DNA from: Escherichia coli
GTDB lineage: Bacteria; Pseudomonadota; Gammaproteobacteria; Enterobacterales; Enterobacteriaceae
Assembly: GCF_044324875.1 (NCBI RefSeq)
Contig: NZ_CP172185.1
Direction: 5' to 3' (one strand)
Length of the DNA stretch: 64,000 nucleotides
Shown one piece after another: positions 37,901 to 43,900 of this stretch (positions are counted from its first letter, which is position 1; the number at the start of each line of letters is the position of its first letter). Made by a program: the position numbers.

Positions 37901-40900
37901 CAGTTTTGGTGGAAAGGTCTTTGGCTTTCGACTGGATATAAGCAAGAGACGGGCGCAAACCAAAGTCGAACTGATACTGTGCAACTACAGCGAAATCTTC
38001 AGTTTTATTGGCTACACCGTTGTAGCCGCCGGGCGAGTACTTGATTGCGCGGGTATTACGTGTTTCACCATAAGTGGCTGCCAGGTACAGATTATTCGCG
38101 TCATATTTTACGCTGGTAGCCCACTGTTCAGCTTTTTTACCTTTACCAAAAGTCGTCGCTTCCTGTGCATTGGTGCGATCGGCTGCACCATATGCAGCTA
38201 CAAAACCAAAGCCTTCATATTCATAACTGACAGAGCCGCCAACACCGTCGCCGTTTGAAGTGCCTGCATTGTCACGCTCATTTTTACCCAGATACTGAAC
38301 CGCAAAGTTCAGTCCATCAACCAGACCGAAGAAGTCGGTATTACGGTAAGTGGCAACACCACCTACACGACCCACGAAGAAGTTATCCCCGTTAACAGAA
38401 CCAGGCCCAAATTCAGGGAGGACATCAGTATAGCTTAATGCGTCATACACCACGCCATAGTTACGACCATAATCCAGAGAGCCAATATTTTCTAGTTTCA
38501 GGCCAGCGTATGCCAGACGGGTTTTGTCTCCTGCAGAGCCATCTTTTTCTGCCTTGTTGCCTTTGAATTCATATTCCCATTGACCAAAACCAGTTAACTG
38601 ATTGTTGATTTGGGTTTCACCTTTGAATCCAAGACGGGCATAAGTTCCATCACCTTCTTCTTTGGCGTTAGAAGAAAAGTAATGTTTACCCACTACTTTG
38701 CCATATAAATCCAGTTTATTACTGTTTTTATTATATATTTCTGCTGCATTTGCAGACATTGCCAGAAATACTGATGCTGCTACAGCAGAAAGTGCCACTG
38801 TTAAATTTTTCATTTTTTATCCTCTGGTGGGAGTTAATTGGACGACAAAATGCTATCAGGATGAAAATTTAATTTCTGTGTATAATGTATACAAGGAAAA
38901 TTAAGGAGTCCGATTCTTTATATGTGACCACCATCACAAAATAAGAAGTCATGCAAGCTAATAAATAGATGGCTATCTTTCACTCAAAAAATTAAGATCA
39001 ATCTTTTTTATTAGAAGTGCTAAATATATTTAATTATTTGGGGTTGTGAGTTATTTATATAACCTTAATAAAGACATTACTTTTGAAGAAAAATACGTGC
39101 ATAGAAGAATGCATAATCTTTAATTACATCTTGCCAAGCGTCGCAACAATCCAGAGATTGTATGTGGGGTGAATCATGCAGCATGCAGGGTATGAACAAA
39201 CACTTTACGATCGTAAAAGTATGCATATCATGGTAAGAGTGGTTCCTACGCCACACAACTTAAACCCGCAGCCAGGCGGTTTTTTACATCGAAAATCTGC
39301 ACCGGACATTAAGCTCTTTGGCGGACCAGATAAGAGGTGCGCTTAGTTGGGTTTGTCGGGCTTTCTCTGAGATTTGCGGTATTAATCCCGTAACGTTATT
39401 ATGCTGCTCGAGGCCCTTTAGCTCAGTGGTGAGAGCGAGCGACTCATAATCGCAAGGGCGCTGGTTCAAATTCAGCAAGGGCCACCAACCGCTACTAGCT
39501 CATCAGGAAAGAGCGTCAACCCTTTAAGTTGAGTGCGCTAGGTTCGATTCCCCGCTGGCGGTCCAGCGCCGACTTACCTCAGTCGGCAGAACAGTTTAGT
39601 TGTAACCATCAGGCCACCACTTCAATTCCGGTAGTCGGCACTAAATTTCCAAGCTCGTGCTCACGGCCTGCTTCATATCCGCGCCAGGTCCGTCGCGATT
39701 AAACCACAGGGCTTTTCAGGAGGGGCCACAGAGAGCGTCACACTGACCATTCCCTGTGGCTTGTGCTGAGATCCGGTCAGTGAAATTGTGCAAAGGGAAT
39801 CTTCGGGAGCTTTGGGCAGAATGTCAGTTATTGATGTTGACATCCTCCACACCCTGAAGGTCGGGGTTTTACGGCGCACTGGATAAAATACCTGAACAAA
39901 CAGCCTCTTCGTGCGGCTTTTTTATAACGAGATTCTGACTTGCTGCCGTCCGTAATGTCGGATGGCGGAGGTGAGGGACTATGAGAATGGACGAACGATA
40001 CAGTAACGCTGCATACGGCAGCGCAGGACTTGTTGCGTTCTTTGCCAGCCTGTCACTGCAGGATTGGGGATTTATTATCGGCGTGGCGTTCAGTATCATT
40101 CTTGGCGTTCTTACTTATCGCCTTAACAAACGGGAGCAGGAAAAACGAACCCGCATATTGCTCGAAATTCTGGAACGAACTAATGCCGGTAATGTTCCGG
40201 CTACGGCACATGCTGTGGCTGAGATTGCGAAAAAGGCACCAAAAGAAATATGACGAATATCCCGGGAGTGAGGGGATAATATACCTTTTAACAAAATCCG
40301 GGAACATGAAACGCCCGGAACGTTTCATGAGGCATGCCCCGTGGGGAGCAGGGCATAACTGTGCGGAATAGCTTTCATTGTGATATCAATAATCACGGTA
40401 TTCAAAATATTACGGGCCTGTGGGATCAGGTTGTTTTTTGTCTGATTCCAGAGGGAAGGGACGCTGTTTCGGTTCTCTGAACTTTAGTGATAATGAATTG
40501 AAAATCCTCATTTTTTGCTGCCATGCATAATGTCTGTCCCATGAACAGGGGGGGCTCAATTCTTCATTCACCCATGCGTTAATATCTTGTTTCAGGTGTT
40601 GAAGCATACGGGGTGTTAATGCACTCATAATAATATCCAGCGTTTTATGCGAGAGTTTACCGTAAGGGTCTGCAAGGATGCTGCTCGTTGCTTCGTTATT
40701 ATCCACCATAAGTGGAAGTAGCGCTGATTTAACTTTTTCTGTCATTAGTTGCAAAAATCTACTGCGCAAATTTTCTTTACTGTTCATTTCTGAAGCCTCA
40801 TCTGTTGTCGTTTGGTTTTCCTGAACGGGTATGTTTATGAGACATGCTGGTACTGGATTATATACCTGATATATCCAGGATTATAAACCTTTAGATCCTG

Positions 40901-43900
40901 ATAAATATACATGAACGCAAAAATCAGATACGGCCTGTCGGCTGCCGTTCTGGCGCTGATTGGTGCTGGCGCATCTGCTCCTCAGATACTTGATCAGTTT
41001 CTGGACGAAAAAGAGGGTAACCACACAACGGCATACCGCGATGGGTCCGGCATCTGGACCATCTGTCGGGGTGCCACGATGGTGGATGGAAAACCCGTTT
41101 TTCCCGGAATGAAGCTGTCGAAGGAAAAATGCGACCAGGTTAACGCTATTGAACGTGATAAGGCACTGGCATGGGTGGAGCGCAATATTAAAGTACCTCT
41201 GACCGAACCACAGAAAGCGGGTATTGCGTCATTCTGTCCCTATAACATTGGCCCCGGTAAGTGTTTCCCGTCGACGTTTTATAAGCGGCTTAATGCCGGT
41301 GATCGAAAAGGCGCCTGCGAGGCGATTCGCTGGTGGATAAAGGATGGTGGGCGTGACTGCCGTATCCGTTCAAATAACTGCTATGGACAGGTTATTCGTC
41401 GTGACCAGGAAAGCGCATTAGCCTGTTGGGGGATAGATCAGTGAGCAGAGTCGCCGCGATTATTTATGCTCTGGTTATCTGCATCATCGTCTGCCTGTCG
41501 TTGGCGGTCAATCATTACCGTGATAACGCCATAGCCTACAAAGAACAACGTGATAAAAAAGTCAGTGAGCTGAAGCAGGCGACCGCCACCATCGCTGACA
41601 TGCAGCAGCGTCAGCGTGATGTTGCTGCGCTCGATGCAAAATACACGAAGGAGTTAGCTGATGCGAAAGCTGAAAATGATGCTCTTCGGCGCAAGCTTGA
41701 TAATGGTGGCAGGGTGCTCGTCAAAGGAAAATGCCCTGTGCCATCCTCAGCCGAAACCTCCAGCGCCTCCGGCATGGGCAATGATGCCACCGTCGAACTC
41801 TCTCCAGTTGCTGGACGAAACGTTCTCGGTATCCGGGACGGAATTATCCGCGACCAGACAGCACTGAGAACGCTTCAGGAATACATCAGGACGCAATGCC
41901 TTCGATGATAGCGATAATTTTACTCATCATCCTTCACATCTGGCTCTGTAGACAGGGTGGTGATCACTTCTGGAGTGAATCCAGATTAAACATCTCATTG
42001 CTGATGCTTGATATTGAGCATCTGGCGCGCGGTAAGGGGCTGCGTTGAGATAAGAGCCAGTCATTAAAAATACCTGGATTTAGCCTCGCATTCGCGGGGC
42101 TTTTTTATTGCCATTACAAAAGCCACTCCCTACAGAGTGGCTTTGATAATGGCTTATACCCTACACGGGATAACTTAACTGATATCCCTTTTAACGGATA
42201 AAGGTATTCAAGCCTGACACATCATGCGCTGTATCGTCGCTGTATTCCCGCATTAACCATGACCGTAGCCCGACGGGGAACTCCTTCTGCGCGAGTGTGC
42301 GGGAATAATCAAAAACGATGCACACCGGGTTTTTACCGCGCTAATGATTCGCGGGTTTGTCCCTCATGCTCGCCAGTCCGGTGCGATGGTGGAAGAAACC
42401 GGAAGCTGTATTACAGAAAGTGCTACTACTGTATCCTGATGCGATGTATGTAATGTGAGTCAGATAATGGCACAGGATGTGGTGATGTGGCAGTCTGGAA
42501 CACAGGATATATTGTCAGAATAAGACCCGTAGGAATAAAAATGAAAAGACGCCTTTCACTACTTTTTCTGTTATCTGCCCTGGCAGTGGGATGCTCGCAG
42601 CAAAAAGCTGATGAGCCCCGGCAATTAGTGACGGTGTATCCACGATATCCGGAATATGCTGCAGCAAATTATATCAAGGGGCTGGTTGAGGTTAAGTTCG
42701 ATATTGGTGCTGACGGGACTGTGACACGGATCGTTTTTCTCCGCTCAGAGCCTCATAATTTGTTTCGTGATGAAGTGGTGAAGGCCATGGCGAAATGGAG
42801 ATTTGAAAAGAATAGTCCCCGTCAGGGAGTGAAGAGACAATTTATCTTTACGCCATCACGTCCCTGATGCTTCCAGGTAGAGAGGGGCTGGAAGCAGGAG
42901 AAAAATGAAAGAGCCAGCGGTTATATTTTTGTCATGGCTGACGAGAAATGATGGAAGAAGGCGTTGTATGCCACACAACGCCTCACTGTTCATTTCTTCT
43001 TTTTCTCTGGTGTAACCCGATGAATAAGAGTTGCACTGGTTTCCGATGAGATGGCGATATGCTCGGGCAAAGTATGCTGGCAGTTTTCCAACTGGTCAAA
43101 AATACCTGCTCTCGTCTGTTGCAATGCCTGCAGCATGCGGCGGCAATGCGCCTTTGCTTTTGCTAACCATCTTTCCTTACTCTATCAGTCGCTGCGTGAA
43201 CTCATCATGGAATACCAGGTAAATGCGGATGTTATCGGTTTTGGCTACGCAGCATAGTACAAAACGGACAGGTGCATCCCGGAATGGGGGAGGCGTCACA
43301 TGTCCCTGTGATGGTTGTTCCGGGTAATGCACTGTGTGGGGCATAAAAATGTCCGATAATTTTACTTTCTACCGCAGTTAGTTGATTCGTTGGTCCTGGT
43401 AGCACATTGGGCGAGGGTTTAAATGCCAGGCAACTGAAGGATGATGTTGCAAGGGAGATAGCGAGAATATTTCTGATTTTCATTTGATGATGCCTCTGTG
43501 TGAAATGACGGTAAACGACGCACTTGTGCCGGCACATAATAGCAAGCATCAGAATAGATCAGATTCGATTCTTGCTGTAAGTGATAATTATTCTCGTTTT
43601 TTTCGGGTCCTTTCCGGCGATCCAACAGGTTACGGGGCGTCGACCTCGCGCAAAACAACTCCTTATGAAATTTTTACGGGAAATTCAGATCCGTTCTTCT
43701 TTCTTGTAAGTCATTGTGTATATTGAATTTTATTTGTTCTGAGAAAGGATCTGATAAGGCTTCGTTTCGCCTGAAAAGGCAGTTTTAAGATCCTTTCTTA
43801 AAAAAACGGGTCATTTTCTTGCTGGAGGGGATGCTGGTGTGAGGGTTAACAAGAAAAAGCTGGCTGAGATTTTTGATGTTGATGTGCGGACTATATCCAC

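What the first reader, a model, noticed from the sequence alone, without database searches (positions are those of the whole stretch)
39981..41444. Lysis cassette split by an antisense ORF; dual-start holin paired with SAR-endolysin
The holin begins Met-Arg-Met (a dual-start holin/antiholin arrangement) and has two TM helices like phage-21 pinholin, and the endolysin has an N-terminal signal-anchor-release segment; together this suggests a pinholin/SAR-endolysin system. Unusually the two genes are 650 bp apart, and the gap holds a 125-aa ORF of unknown function on the opposite strand.
Basis: partly seen in the sequence, partly recalled or inferred. Interest (0 to 1): 0.4.

Follow-up and report, generated by a model that had tools for sequence, protein, structure and literature searches.

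The report
Prophage lysis cassette with antisense moron
This is the cell-bursting gene set of an E. coli lambda-like prophage (a small two-helix holin, a membrane-tethered lysozyme and spanins), interrupted by a small conserved gene of unknown function on the opposite strand; both the lysis system and this interruption recur in other E. coli prophages, so it is fairly ordinary.

Summary
39981-40253 encodes a 90-aa class II holin that starts Met-Arg-Met. 40911-41444 encodes a 177-aa lysozyme with an R21-like N-terminal signal-anchor. Between them lies a 657-bp gap holding a 125-aa ORF on the minus strand (40410-40787). Rz/Rz1 spanins follow.

The pinholin/SAR-endolysin reading holds in silico. 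The holin has two hydrophobic segments, a Gly/Ala/Ser-rich TMD1 and a GxxxSxxxG motif in TMD2. Its M-[KR]-M start is kept in 79 of 92 homologues, and its family aligns with the S21/EssD family (hhalign 90%). Its closest relatives directly abut R21-like endolysins.

The split is less unusual than claimed. The antisense ORF belongs to an uncharacterised family (PHROG 1853, canonical 104 aa) and is under purifying selection (dN/dS about 0.14-0.37). It is low in GC (39% against 52%) and occurs in 673 of 5,426 complete E. coli genomes. In O157:H7 prophages and Stx2 phage 86 it also sits just upstream of R on the opposite strand.

The window's exact combination is in only 19 genomes. It is a mosaic junction that removed the ORF's normal stop codon, adding 21 aa.

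Best reading: a standard pinholin-type cassette carrying a moron. The ORF's function remains unknown.

The parts
37092..37526 (+). Q-like late-gene antiterminator. This is context: it drives late transcription through the cassette.
   Evidence: phrog_79 anti-termination protein Q-like, E 5.9e-52.
39934..39976 (+). RNA stem-loop just upstream of the holin starts. Its 3' arm covers the GGAGG Shine-Dalgarno sequence. It may set the ratio of initiation at Met1 and Met3, like the sdi structure of lambda S (inference).
   Evidence: MFE -26.8 kcal/mol, z -3.25, 0 of 200 shuffles fold as well. Smaller hairpins overlapping the SD sit at the same position in relatives and in essD.
39981..40253 (+). Class II (two-TMD) holin, 90 aa, dual start Met1-Arg2-Met3 (second start at 39987). 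TMD1 is about residues 9-26, TMD2 about 29-46, with G34xxxS38xxxG42, followed by a charged C-terminal tail. Predicted pinholin/antiholin pair.
   Evidence: phrog_1350 holin 3.1e-29. Pfam PF16080 (HP1 holin) 1.7e-4 and PF04971 (P21 holin S) 1.2e-3. Hydropathy and alignment to EssD. Motif conservation. hhalign to the S21 family, probability 90.5%, E 1.4e-6.
40254..40475 (.). Mosaic junction segment found only with this cassette. It holds the 21-codon read-through tail of the antisense ORF (40410-40475). It also holds two strong hairpins (40333-40357 and 40305-40329); on the minus strand these follow the ORF's stop and end in a U-rich stretch, so they are a possible terminator.
   Evidence: Found in only 19 of 5,426 E. 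coli genomes and in no phage record. Holin homology ends exactly at 40253. ORF-family homology starts near 40477. Folds. No remnant of an endolysin or of the phrog_1085 partner gene.
40410..40787 (-). Antisense gene of unknown function, 125 aa here; the canonical 104 aa correspond to 40476-40787. The product is predicted to be a soluble, basic, five-helix protein. Interpreted as a moron.
   Evidence: phrog_1853 4.8e-41. Homologues at 47-98% identity. dN/dS 0.14-0.37. AF2 model pLDDT 89. GC 39% against 52% for R. pI 9.3-9.5. No Pfam, NCBIfam or PADLOC match.
40857..40887 (-). Candidate sigma-70 promoter for the antisense gene: perfect -10 TATAAT at 40862-40857, with a weak -35 (TTTATA or TTATAA) at a spacing of 18-19.
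   Evidence: Own scan. The -10 is conserved in 4 of 5 close homologues and is TACAAT in the fifth. The standard scan did not call a promoter here.
40911..41444 (+). SAR-type endolysin R, 177 aa. The signal-anchor covers residues 7-27 (nt 40929-40991). The catalytic triad is E35-D44-T50.
   Evidence: Pfam PF00959 1.7e-24. phrog_7 endolysin 7.4e-64. Aligns over residues 9-174 with R21 (PDB 3HDE), E 5.7e-17, and with RrrD (4ZPU). Alignment and hydropathy.
41441..41908 (+). Rz i-spanin. Its GTG start overlaps the stop codon of R.
   Evidence: phrog_13 Rz-like spanin 7.9e-74. PGAP 'lysis protein' at the same coordinates in identical genomes.
41661..41867 (+). Rz1 o-spanin lipoprotein, embedded in Rz in another frame, with lipobox VAGC.
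   Evidence: phrog_3198 Rz-like spanin 1.4e-25. Sequence.

Best explanation
The region is the late lysis cassette of a lambdoid E. coli prophage. The gene order is Q, a porin moron, tRNAs, holin, the antisense gene, R, Rz/Rz1 and terminase.

**How the lysis system most likely works**

- Shown from sequence: the holin is a two-TMD class II holin of the HP1/S21 superfamily with two start codons.
- Inferred by analogy with S21: the Met3 product is the active holin. Its weakly hydrophobic TMD1 leaves the membrane, and TMD2 then oligomerises through its GxxxSxxxG face into small holes that depolarise the membrane.
- Inferred: the Met1 product carries one extra positive charge (Arg2). This delays the exit of TMD1, so it acts as the antiholin.
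- Inferred: the endolysin is exported by Sec and held inactive in the inner membrane by its uncleaved Gly/Ala-rich N-terminal anchor. It is released and refolds when the membrane depolarises, as R21 does. Rz/Rz1 then disrupt the outer membrane.

**The antisense gene**

The 657-bp gap is not part of this mechanism. It holds a moron: an optional, low-GC gene (PHROG 1853) transcribed against the late operon, probably from its own promoter in the lysogen. It encodes a soluble, basic, helical protein of unknown function. The Q-modified polymerase simply reads through it to reach R.

The present arrangement arose by mosaic recombination. An HP1-type holin was joined to an 'ORF + R' block of the kind seen in O157/Stx prophages. 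The breakpoint lies at the ORF's 3' end.
For: **Context.** RusA, Q, porin, tRNAs, lysis genes and terminase are identified.

**Holin**
- Two hydrophobic segments. TMD1 is 56% Gly/Ala/Ser/Thr with mean KD 1.23, against 2.03 for TMD2.
- M-[KR]-M in 79 of 92 full-length homologues, and GxxxSxxxG in 88 of 92.
- hhalign to the S21/EssD family gives probability 90.5% and E 1.4e-6, covering the start and both TMDs.
- Pfam hits to both the HP1 and P21 holin families.
- A stem-loop sequesters the SD.
- The nearest relatives (77-81% identity, on more than 1000 contigs) overlap stop-to-start with R21-like or other Gly/Ala-rich N-terminus lysozymes.

**Endolysin**
-. Pro follows the A-S-A motif at the end of the anchor, which argues against signal-peptidase cleavage (sequence observation plus established knowledge of signal peptidase I).
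- PMC8136144 predicts this R family to be SAR endolysins.

**Moron**
- The ORF is optional. R-like DNA is in 5,298 genomes but the ORF in only 673, and homology to ORF-less phages starts 26-40 bp before the R start codon.
- GC is 39% for the ORF and 37% for its upstream spacer, against 52% for R.
- Purifying selection is shown.
- The ORF is intact in decayed prophages where R is frameshifted or gone.
- The -10 box is conserved, and hairpins follow the stop codon.
- A porin gene is likewise inserted antisense in the same late region. Lambda bor is a known precedent (established knowledge).

**Mosaic origin.**
Against: - No experiment supports any step. The HP1-type 90-aa holin subfamily has, to my knowledge, not been shown to make pinholes.
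- The holin's C-terminal tail is about 30 residues longer than that of S21.
- The Pfam matches of the holin are weak.
- The standard promoter/terminator scan found no promoter or terminator on the minus strand, and the candidate -35 is poor.
- PGAP treats the ORF as a pseudogene. The ORF has lost its canonical stop, and close variants are frameshifted at a G7 run (P0004 and P0005).
- Most of the 673 genomes are clonal O157-type copies, so the count overstates independent retention.
- Structure comparison gave no functional clue.
Confidence: 0.65

Rival explanations
1. The antisense ORF in this window is a decaying remnant with no function. It would be a by-product of the recombination that joined the holin to the R block.
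For: - PGAP flags it as incomplete.
- The canonical stop is lost, adding 21 aa.
- Its usual convergent partner gene (phrog_1085) is absent.
- Near-identical variants are frameshifted at the G7 run.
- The arrangement is rare, in 19 genomes.
Against: - The whole 104-aa canonical frame is intact.
- The family evolves under purifying selection across lineages.
- The same partner-less arrangement is kept in O157-type prophages.
- The 4.3-kb block containing it is 99.6% identical on at least two different prophage backbones.
Confidence: 0.15
2. The antisense gene is a regulator of lysis. Convergent transcription, or the antisense RNA, could uncouple or damp R expression relative to the holin. Alternatively, its protein could hold lysis genes in check in the lysogen.
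For: - Family members always lie inside lysis cassettes. They are divergent from R or from the holin and convergent with the upstream late gene.
- R has no obvious Shine-Dalgarno sequence and shares its upstream spacer with the ORF's promoter region.
- The product is basic (pI 9.4) and helical.
Against: - The ORF is optional for R-type cassettes.
- It is nearly absent from isolated phages, occurring in 4 of 50,697 records.
- It stays intact where the lysis genes have decayed.
- No DNA-binding or antiholin-like fold was detected.
Confidence: 0.1
3. The holin is a conventional large-hole class II holin, not a pinholin. A SAR endolysin works with either kind.
For: - Pinhole formation is demonstrated only for S21.
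- The match to the S21 family is remote.
- The C-terminal domain is much longer than that of S21.
- Other SAR-endolysin phages such as P1 and Mu use other holin types (PMC9025707 and PMC9239132, listed).
Against: - TMD1 is SAR-like in composition.
- The GxxxSxxxG face of TMD2, the dual start and consistent pairing with SAR endolysins all match S21.
Confidence: 0.15

Closest known systems
Phage 21 S21 pinholin / R21 SAR endolysin (also DLP12 essD-rrrD)
   Same: - Two-TMD holin with a dual start (M-R-M here, M-K-S-M in S21).
- Gly/Ala/Ser-rich TMD1, and GxxxSxxxG followed by LTY in TMD2.
- Endolysin with an N-terminal signal-anchor and an E35-D44-T50 triad at the same residue numbers.
- Rz/Rz1 follow.
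   Different: - The holin falls in the HP1 holin Pfam family, with only remote similarity to S21 (about 31-35% identity over the TMDs).
- It carries a 44-residue C-terminal tail.
- The holin and endolysin genes are separated by 657 bp rather than overlapping.
O157:H7 Sp4-type and Stx2 phage 86 lysis cassettes (S - [phrog_1085 gene] - antisense ORF - R - Rz)
   Same: - The same 177-aa R family (92% identity to the O157 copy).
- The same antisense ORF family (80% aa identity to O157, 48% to phage 86), immediately upstream of R and divergent from it.
   Different: - Those cassettes carry an S21-type 68-71 aa holin.
- Stx phages also carry a 190-270 aa phrog_1085/YdfR-like gene convergent with the ORF.
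- Their ORF ends at the canonical 104 aa.
Lambda bor and Lc/NmpC porin morons
   Same: Accessory genes inserted in or next to the late lysis region and transcribed against the late operon, with deviant base composition. A porin moron of this kind lies 1.2 kb upstream in this very window.
   Different: bor and the porins are envelope proteins with known lysogen phenotypes. The ORF product has no signal peptide or TMD, and nothing is known of its function or expression.
Lambda S dual-start control (S105/S107 with the sdi stem-loop)
   Same: M-[KR]-M start, with an RNA stem-loop overlapping the ribosome-binding site.
   Different: Lambda S is a three-TMD class I holin. The role of the stem-loop here is inferred only.

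Membership tests
Pinholin (S21-type class II holin) | Two transmembrane domains, with no third | tested here: met
   KD hydropathy gives two segments (about residues 9-26 and 29-46) and then a charged tail. Topology (N-in/C-in) was not testable.
Pinholin (S21-type class II holin) | TMD1 is weakly hydrophobic and Gly/Ala/Ser-rich (SAR-like) | tested here: met
   TMD1 has mean KD 1.23 and 56% G/A/S/T, against KD 2.03 for TMD2. EssD TMD1 has 60% G/A/S/T.
Pinholin (S21-type class II holin) | GxxxSxxxG helix-packing motif in TMD2 | tested here: met
   G34-S38-G42 aligns with the motif of EssD. The motif is present in 88 of 92 homologues.
Pinholin (S21-type class II holin) | Sequence homology to the S21 family | tested here: met
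   hhalign probability 90.5%, E 1.4e-6 over 54 columns. Pfam PF04971 i-E 1.2e-3. The relationship is remote but consistent.
Pinholin (S21-type class II holin) | Forms nanometre-scale holes that depolarise the membrane but do not pass a folded endolysin | not testable with these tools
   Needs complementation with cytoplasmic and SAR endolysins, or cryo-EM.
Dual-start holin/antiholin | Two in-frame start codons separated by a basic residue, conserved in relatives | tested here: met
   MRM here. MKM or MRM occurs in 79 of 92 full-length homologues. Use of both starts was not testable.
SAR endolysin | T4-lysozyme-type catalytic domain with an E-x8-D-x5-T triad | tested here: met
   PF00959 1.7e-24. 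E35, D44 and T50 align with R21/RrrD.
SAR endolysin | N-terminal, uncleaved, weakly hydrophobic Gly/Ala-rich membrane anchor | tested here: inconclusive
   Residues 7-27 are 52% G/A/S/T with mean KD 1.43 and align with the R21 SAR domain. Pro follows the only A-x-A site. No signal-peptide predictor was available, and cleavage was not testable.
SAR endolysin | Release from the membrane and activation on depolarisation | not testable with these tools
   Needs fractionation and energy-poison experiments.
Moron | An optional gene between genes that are adjacent in related phages | tested here: met
   Holin and endolysin overlap in L006-L011 and in DLP12. The R family is widespread without the ORF.
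Moron | Own promoter and terminator | tested here: inconclusive
   A conserved TATAAT with a weak -35. Two hairpins and a U-rich stretch follow the stop. The generic scan found none on the minus strand.
Moron | Base composition unlike that of its neighbours | tested here: met
   GC is 39.4% for the ORF and 36.6% for the spacer, against 52% for R and 53% for Rz.
Moron | Expressed from the repressed prophage | not testable with these tools
   No expression data were found. Searches for WP_000138558 and ECs1097 returned nothing.
PHROG 1853 (uncharacterised phage protein family) | Significant match to the family profile | tested here: met
   E 4.8e-41, residues 1-102. The family has only 21 representatives at 50% identity among 1.84 billion proteins.
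YdfR / DUF1327 (the gene between essQ and rrrQ in K-12 Qin) | Sequence similarity to YdfR | tested here: not met
   No Pfam hit. YdfR is on the lysis strand and matches only the N-terminus of the neighbouring gp05 of Stx2 phage 86, not the antisense ORF.

The most novel reading that the evidence does not exclude
The PHROG 1853 gene may be a dedicated module embedded in lysis cassettes, either alone or with its usual convergent partner (PHROG 1085). It would be a lysogen-expressed protein, or an antisense transcription unit, that insulates the endolysin from leaky late transcription or tunes the holin-to-endolysin ratio. Alternatively it could be a superinfection-exclusion or defence factor that has chosen this site. 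Its fixed position, always divergent from R or from the holin across members only 22-48% identical, would then be functional rather than historical.
Probability: 0.1. Interest if true: 0.55.

Novelty: new member of a known kind. Interest (0 to 1): 0.22.

Why it matters
The direct value is limited. The finding adds a predicted pinholin from the HP1 holin family to the well-studied S21/R21 paradigm, and it shows how lysis cassettes are reassembled at gene boundaries. The one open question is the small orphan gene family (PHROG 1853). It is lodged antisense inside the lysis cassettes of many pathogenic E. coli prophages, including O157:H7 Sp4 and some Stx2 phages. It is under purifying selection, has a confident fold and has no known function. 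If it affected lysis or toxin-release timing in Stx phages, it would be of practical interest.

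Tried and rejected
**Was the antisense ORF YdfR/DUF1327, the known gene between essQ and rrrQ in K-12?**
No. It has no Pfam hit, lies on the other strand and has no similarity to YdfR.

**Does the junction 40254-40475 hold a remnant of the endolysin that normally abuts this holin, or of the phrog_1085 partner gene?**
No. There were no tblastn hits even at E 10, and holin homology stops exactly at the stop codon.

**Functional assignment of the ORF**
- Pfam, NCBIfam and PADLOC gave nothing.
- An exhaustive profile search found only 21 representatives, all unannotated.

**Known sRNAs in the gap or in related loci**
- There are no Rfam matches in the gap.
- AsxR, AgvB and STnc100 occur elsewhere in the Stx loci, not here.

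**Literature**
Nothing was found on this ORF family under its RefSeq or Sakai identifiers, or on genes between holin and endolysin.

**Generic promoter/terminator scan**
It found nothing on the minus strand, and the counts on the plus strand were not above shuffles.

Full report
**What is there**

The window around the finding is the late region of a lambdoid E. coli prophage. The gene order is as follows:

- RusA (36740-37111)
- a Q-type antiterminator (37092-37526)
- a porin gene on the minus strand (37710-38813)
- two tRNA genes (39412-39565)
- a 90-aa holin ORF (39981-40253)
- a 657-bp gap with a 125-aa minus-strand ORF (40410-40787)
- a 177-aa lysozyme (40911-41444)
- Rz (41441-41908) with embedded Rz1 (41661-41867)
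- further on, the small and large terminase subunits

An ATG-ORF of this length arises in only 8 of 2000 shuffles of the gap.

**The holin**

The protein starts M-R-M-D-E-R. Hydropathy gives two hydrophobic segments (about residues 9-26 and 29-46), followed by a 44-residue, highly charged tail, with no third segment.

- TMD1 is only weakly hydrophobic (mean KD 1.23) and is 56% Gly/Ala/Ser/Thr, like TMD1 of EssD/S21.
- TMD2 carries G34xxxS38xxxG42 followed by LTY. This aligns residue for residue with the GxxxSxxxG-LTY of EssD.
- The protein matches phrog_1350 (holin, 3e-29). It matches Pfam PF16080 (HP1 holin family, 1.7e-4) and PF04971 (P21 holin S, 1.2e-3) weakly.
- A profile-profile comparison of 15 family members with seven S21/EssD-type holins gives 90.5% probability (E 1.4e-6). 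The alignment covers the start and both TMDs.
- Among 92 near-full-length homologues, 79 start M-K-M or M-R-M, and six more are annotated from the second Met. GxxxSxxxG is present in 88.
- A strong stem-loop (39934-39976; z -3.25, 0 of 200 shuffles as stable) pairs the GGAGG ribosome-binding site just upstream of the two starts. Weaker hairpins overlap the SD at the same position in relatives and in essD. This recalls the sdi element that sets the S107:S105 ratio in lambda; the comparison rests on established knowledge, and its role here is inferred.

**The endolysin**

- The protein is a PF00959 lysozyme.
- It aligns over residues 9-174 with full-length R21 (PDB 3HDE, E 5.7e-17) and with RrrD (4ZPU). 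The alignment includes the N-terminal SAR domain.
- The catalytic E35, D44 and T50 sit at the same residue numbers as in R21.
- Residues 7-27 (YGLSAAVLALIGAGASAPQIL) are 52% Gly/Ala/Ser/Thr. The only A-x-A site is followed by Pro, which is known to block signal peptidase I. This is a sequence observation combined with established knowledge.
- A survey of Stx phages classed this R family as predicted SAR endolysins, and predicted pinholin plus SAR endolysin for 99% of Stx phages (PMC8136144; see also PMC10462455).

**Pairing**

The closest holin relatives (77-81% identity, some on more than 1000 contigs) overlap stop-to-start with a lysozyme. That lysozyme is either nearly identical to R21 (MQSSLRKAVATAIGGGAIAIASVLISGP...) or has a similar Gly/Ala-rich N-terminus. 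This holin family is therefore habitually partnered with SAR endolysins. That is the strongest contextual argument for a pinholin-type system.

**The antisense ORF**

*Family and selection*

- The ORF matches phrog_1853, of unknown function, at 4.8e-41. It has no Pfam, NCBIfam or PADLOC match.
- Homologues range from 98% down to about 22% identity. Their canonical length is 104 aa, ending in ...KFR.
- The window copy has lost that stop and runs on for 21 codons. This is probably why PGAP labels the identical DNA an incomplete pseudogene.
- Some near-identical variants are frameshifted at a G7 run at 40548-40554.
- Across lineages the frame is under purifying selection. dN/dS is 0.14-0.37 in all pairs where dS is not saturated.

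*Predicted product*

- An AlphaFold model built on eight sequences is confident (pLDDT 89, pTM 0.80) and shows five helices.
- The family is tiny, with 21 representatives among 1.84 billion proteins.
- The product is basic (pI 9.3-9.5) and hydrophilic, with no TMD.

*Where the family lives*

- DNA about 80% identical to the ORF occurs in 673 of 5,426 complete E. coli genomes. Many of these are clonal O157:H7 copies.
- In Xuzhou21 and Sakai (prophage Sp4, gene ECs_1097), the ORF lies between an S21-type holin and the same 177-aa R, on the opposite strand, exactly as here. The full 104-aa frame is intact there, although it is annotated as 90 aa.
- In Stx2 phage 86, in two Stx2a phages and in other prophages, the order is S, then a 190-270 aa gene (phrog_1085), then the antisense ORF, then R. 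In phage 86 the phrog_1085 gene has a YdfR-like N-terminus.
- In distant members, the pair (phrog_1085 gene convergent with the ORF) sits upstream of the holin instead.
- The ORF is always divergent from the next lysis gene.
- The partner gene is absent from the window and from the O157 copies.
- Only 4 of 50,697 phage records carry the ORF.
- In two decayed prophages the ORF is intact while R is frameshifted or missing.

*Moron features*

- The ORF is optional. R-like DNA is present in 5,298 genomes, and homology to ORF-less phages begins 26-40 bp before the R start codon.
- Its GC content is 39% and its upstream spacer 37%, against 52-53% for R and Rz.
- A perfect TATAAT on the minus strand (40862-40857) is conserved in four of five close homologues, and is TACAAT in the fifth. 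The -35 is weak, and the generic scan did not call a promoter.
- Two stable hairpins (40333-40357 and 40305-40329) followed by a U-rich stretch lie after the stop on the minus strand.
- The porin gene upstream is another antisense insertion in the same late region. Lambda bor is the textbook precedent (established knowledge).

**How this arrangement arose**

- Homology to the holin family ends exactly at the holin stop codon, 40253.
- Homology to the ORF family begins near 40477.
- The 223 bp in between occur only in the 19 genomes that carry the whole cassette, and in no phage record.
- That segment contains no remnant of an endolysin or of the partner gene.
- The 4.3-kb block 39389-43651 is 99.6% identical in strain GF4, whose prophage has a different Q and no porin. 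The block therefore moves as a unit between backbones.

**Verdict**

Both halves, however, belong to known kinds.

- The lysis system is a pinholin-type/SAR-endolysin/spanin cassette of the phage 21 sort, with a holin from the related HP1 family.
- The 'split' is a recurrent moron insertion seen in O157 and Stx prophages.
- What remains unknown is the function of the PHROG 1853 protein and whether it is expressed.
- I found no evidence linking it to lysis control. That possibility is kept as a low-probability rival because of its strikingly constant position.

Noticed in passing
window 37710-38813 (-): A 367-aa OmpC/NmpC/Lc-like porin gene (phrog_410) lies antisense between Q and the tRNA/lysis genes. 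Its GC is 43%. It looks like a classic lambdoid porin moron, placed as nmpC is in DLP12.
   Followed up: partly
window 39412-39565 (+): Two phage-borne tRNA genes lie just upstream of the holin. The first has anticodon CAT; ARAGORN calls it Met, while PGAP and Sakai call the homologue Ile (ileZ-like). The second is a tRNA-Lys(TTT) with a low Rfam score (31 bits).
   Followed up: no
window 41896-42048 (+): A 50-aa ORF overlaps the end of Rz and has a hydrophobic N-terminus ([18 protein letters not shown]...). It matches phrog_11822 (unknown function, 3.9e-38) and is annotated as hypothetical in identical genomes.
   Followed up: no
window 42487-42867 (+): A lipoprotein-like ORF (...LSALAVGCSQQ...) is called 'TonB family protein' by PGAP but matches phrog_1267, which is labelled 'Rz-like spanin' (2.6e-40). 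The two labels conflict. It may be another moron downstream of the spanins.
   Followed up: no
L002 3792-4598, L003 3827-4468, L016 3838-4395, L012 1710-2264, L019 3324-3899: A gene family (phrog_1085, unknown function) has a conserved C-terminal domain (...RHRD.II..VI...IGRCMG.LQ.AAEIE...D.DNPPFK..P.GW..PG..YLKGRI). It is almost always convergent with the PHROG 1853 ORF, sometimes overlapping its 3' end. In Stx2 phage 86 it is fused to a YdfR-like N-terminus. It is absent from the window.
   Followed up: partly
L002 ~3400-3440, L003, L016, L013 (alignment A3, columns ~150-185): A conserved hairpin, CGCCAGTG-loop-CACTGGCG followed by a T run, lies on the ORF strand between the R or holin start and the ORF start. 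It occurs in the distant family members but not in the window clade. It has no Rfam match.
   Followed up: partly
L024 (Sakai prophage Sp4) 8366-11376: In O157:H7 Sakai the whole holin-ORF-R-Rz-pchA block is inverted relative to Q and terminase, between IS629 and ISEc8. Its lysis cassette is therefore disconnected from late transcription, and ECs_1097 faces the Q direction.
   Followed up: no
window 40548-40554: A G7 homopolymer lies inside the antisense ORF (codons for Pro-Pro). Database variants P0004 and P0005 are frameshifted exactly here. The cause could be a slippage hotspot or sequencing error.
   Followed up: no
window 39389-43651: This 4.3-kb block (tRNAs to the TonB-like gene) is 99.6% identical to a prophage in strain GF4. 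That prophage has a different Q gene and no porin, so there is a sharp mosaic boundary just upstream of the tRNAs.
   Followed up: partly
L021 3001-3330 and L023 3001-3315: Intact copies of the PHROG 1853 ORF sit in decayed prophage remnants. The L023 copy lies next to a frameshifted R and an Rz fragment. The L021 copy lies next to PerC and DUF5339 genes with no lysis genes.
   Followed up: partly
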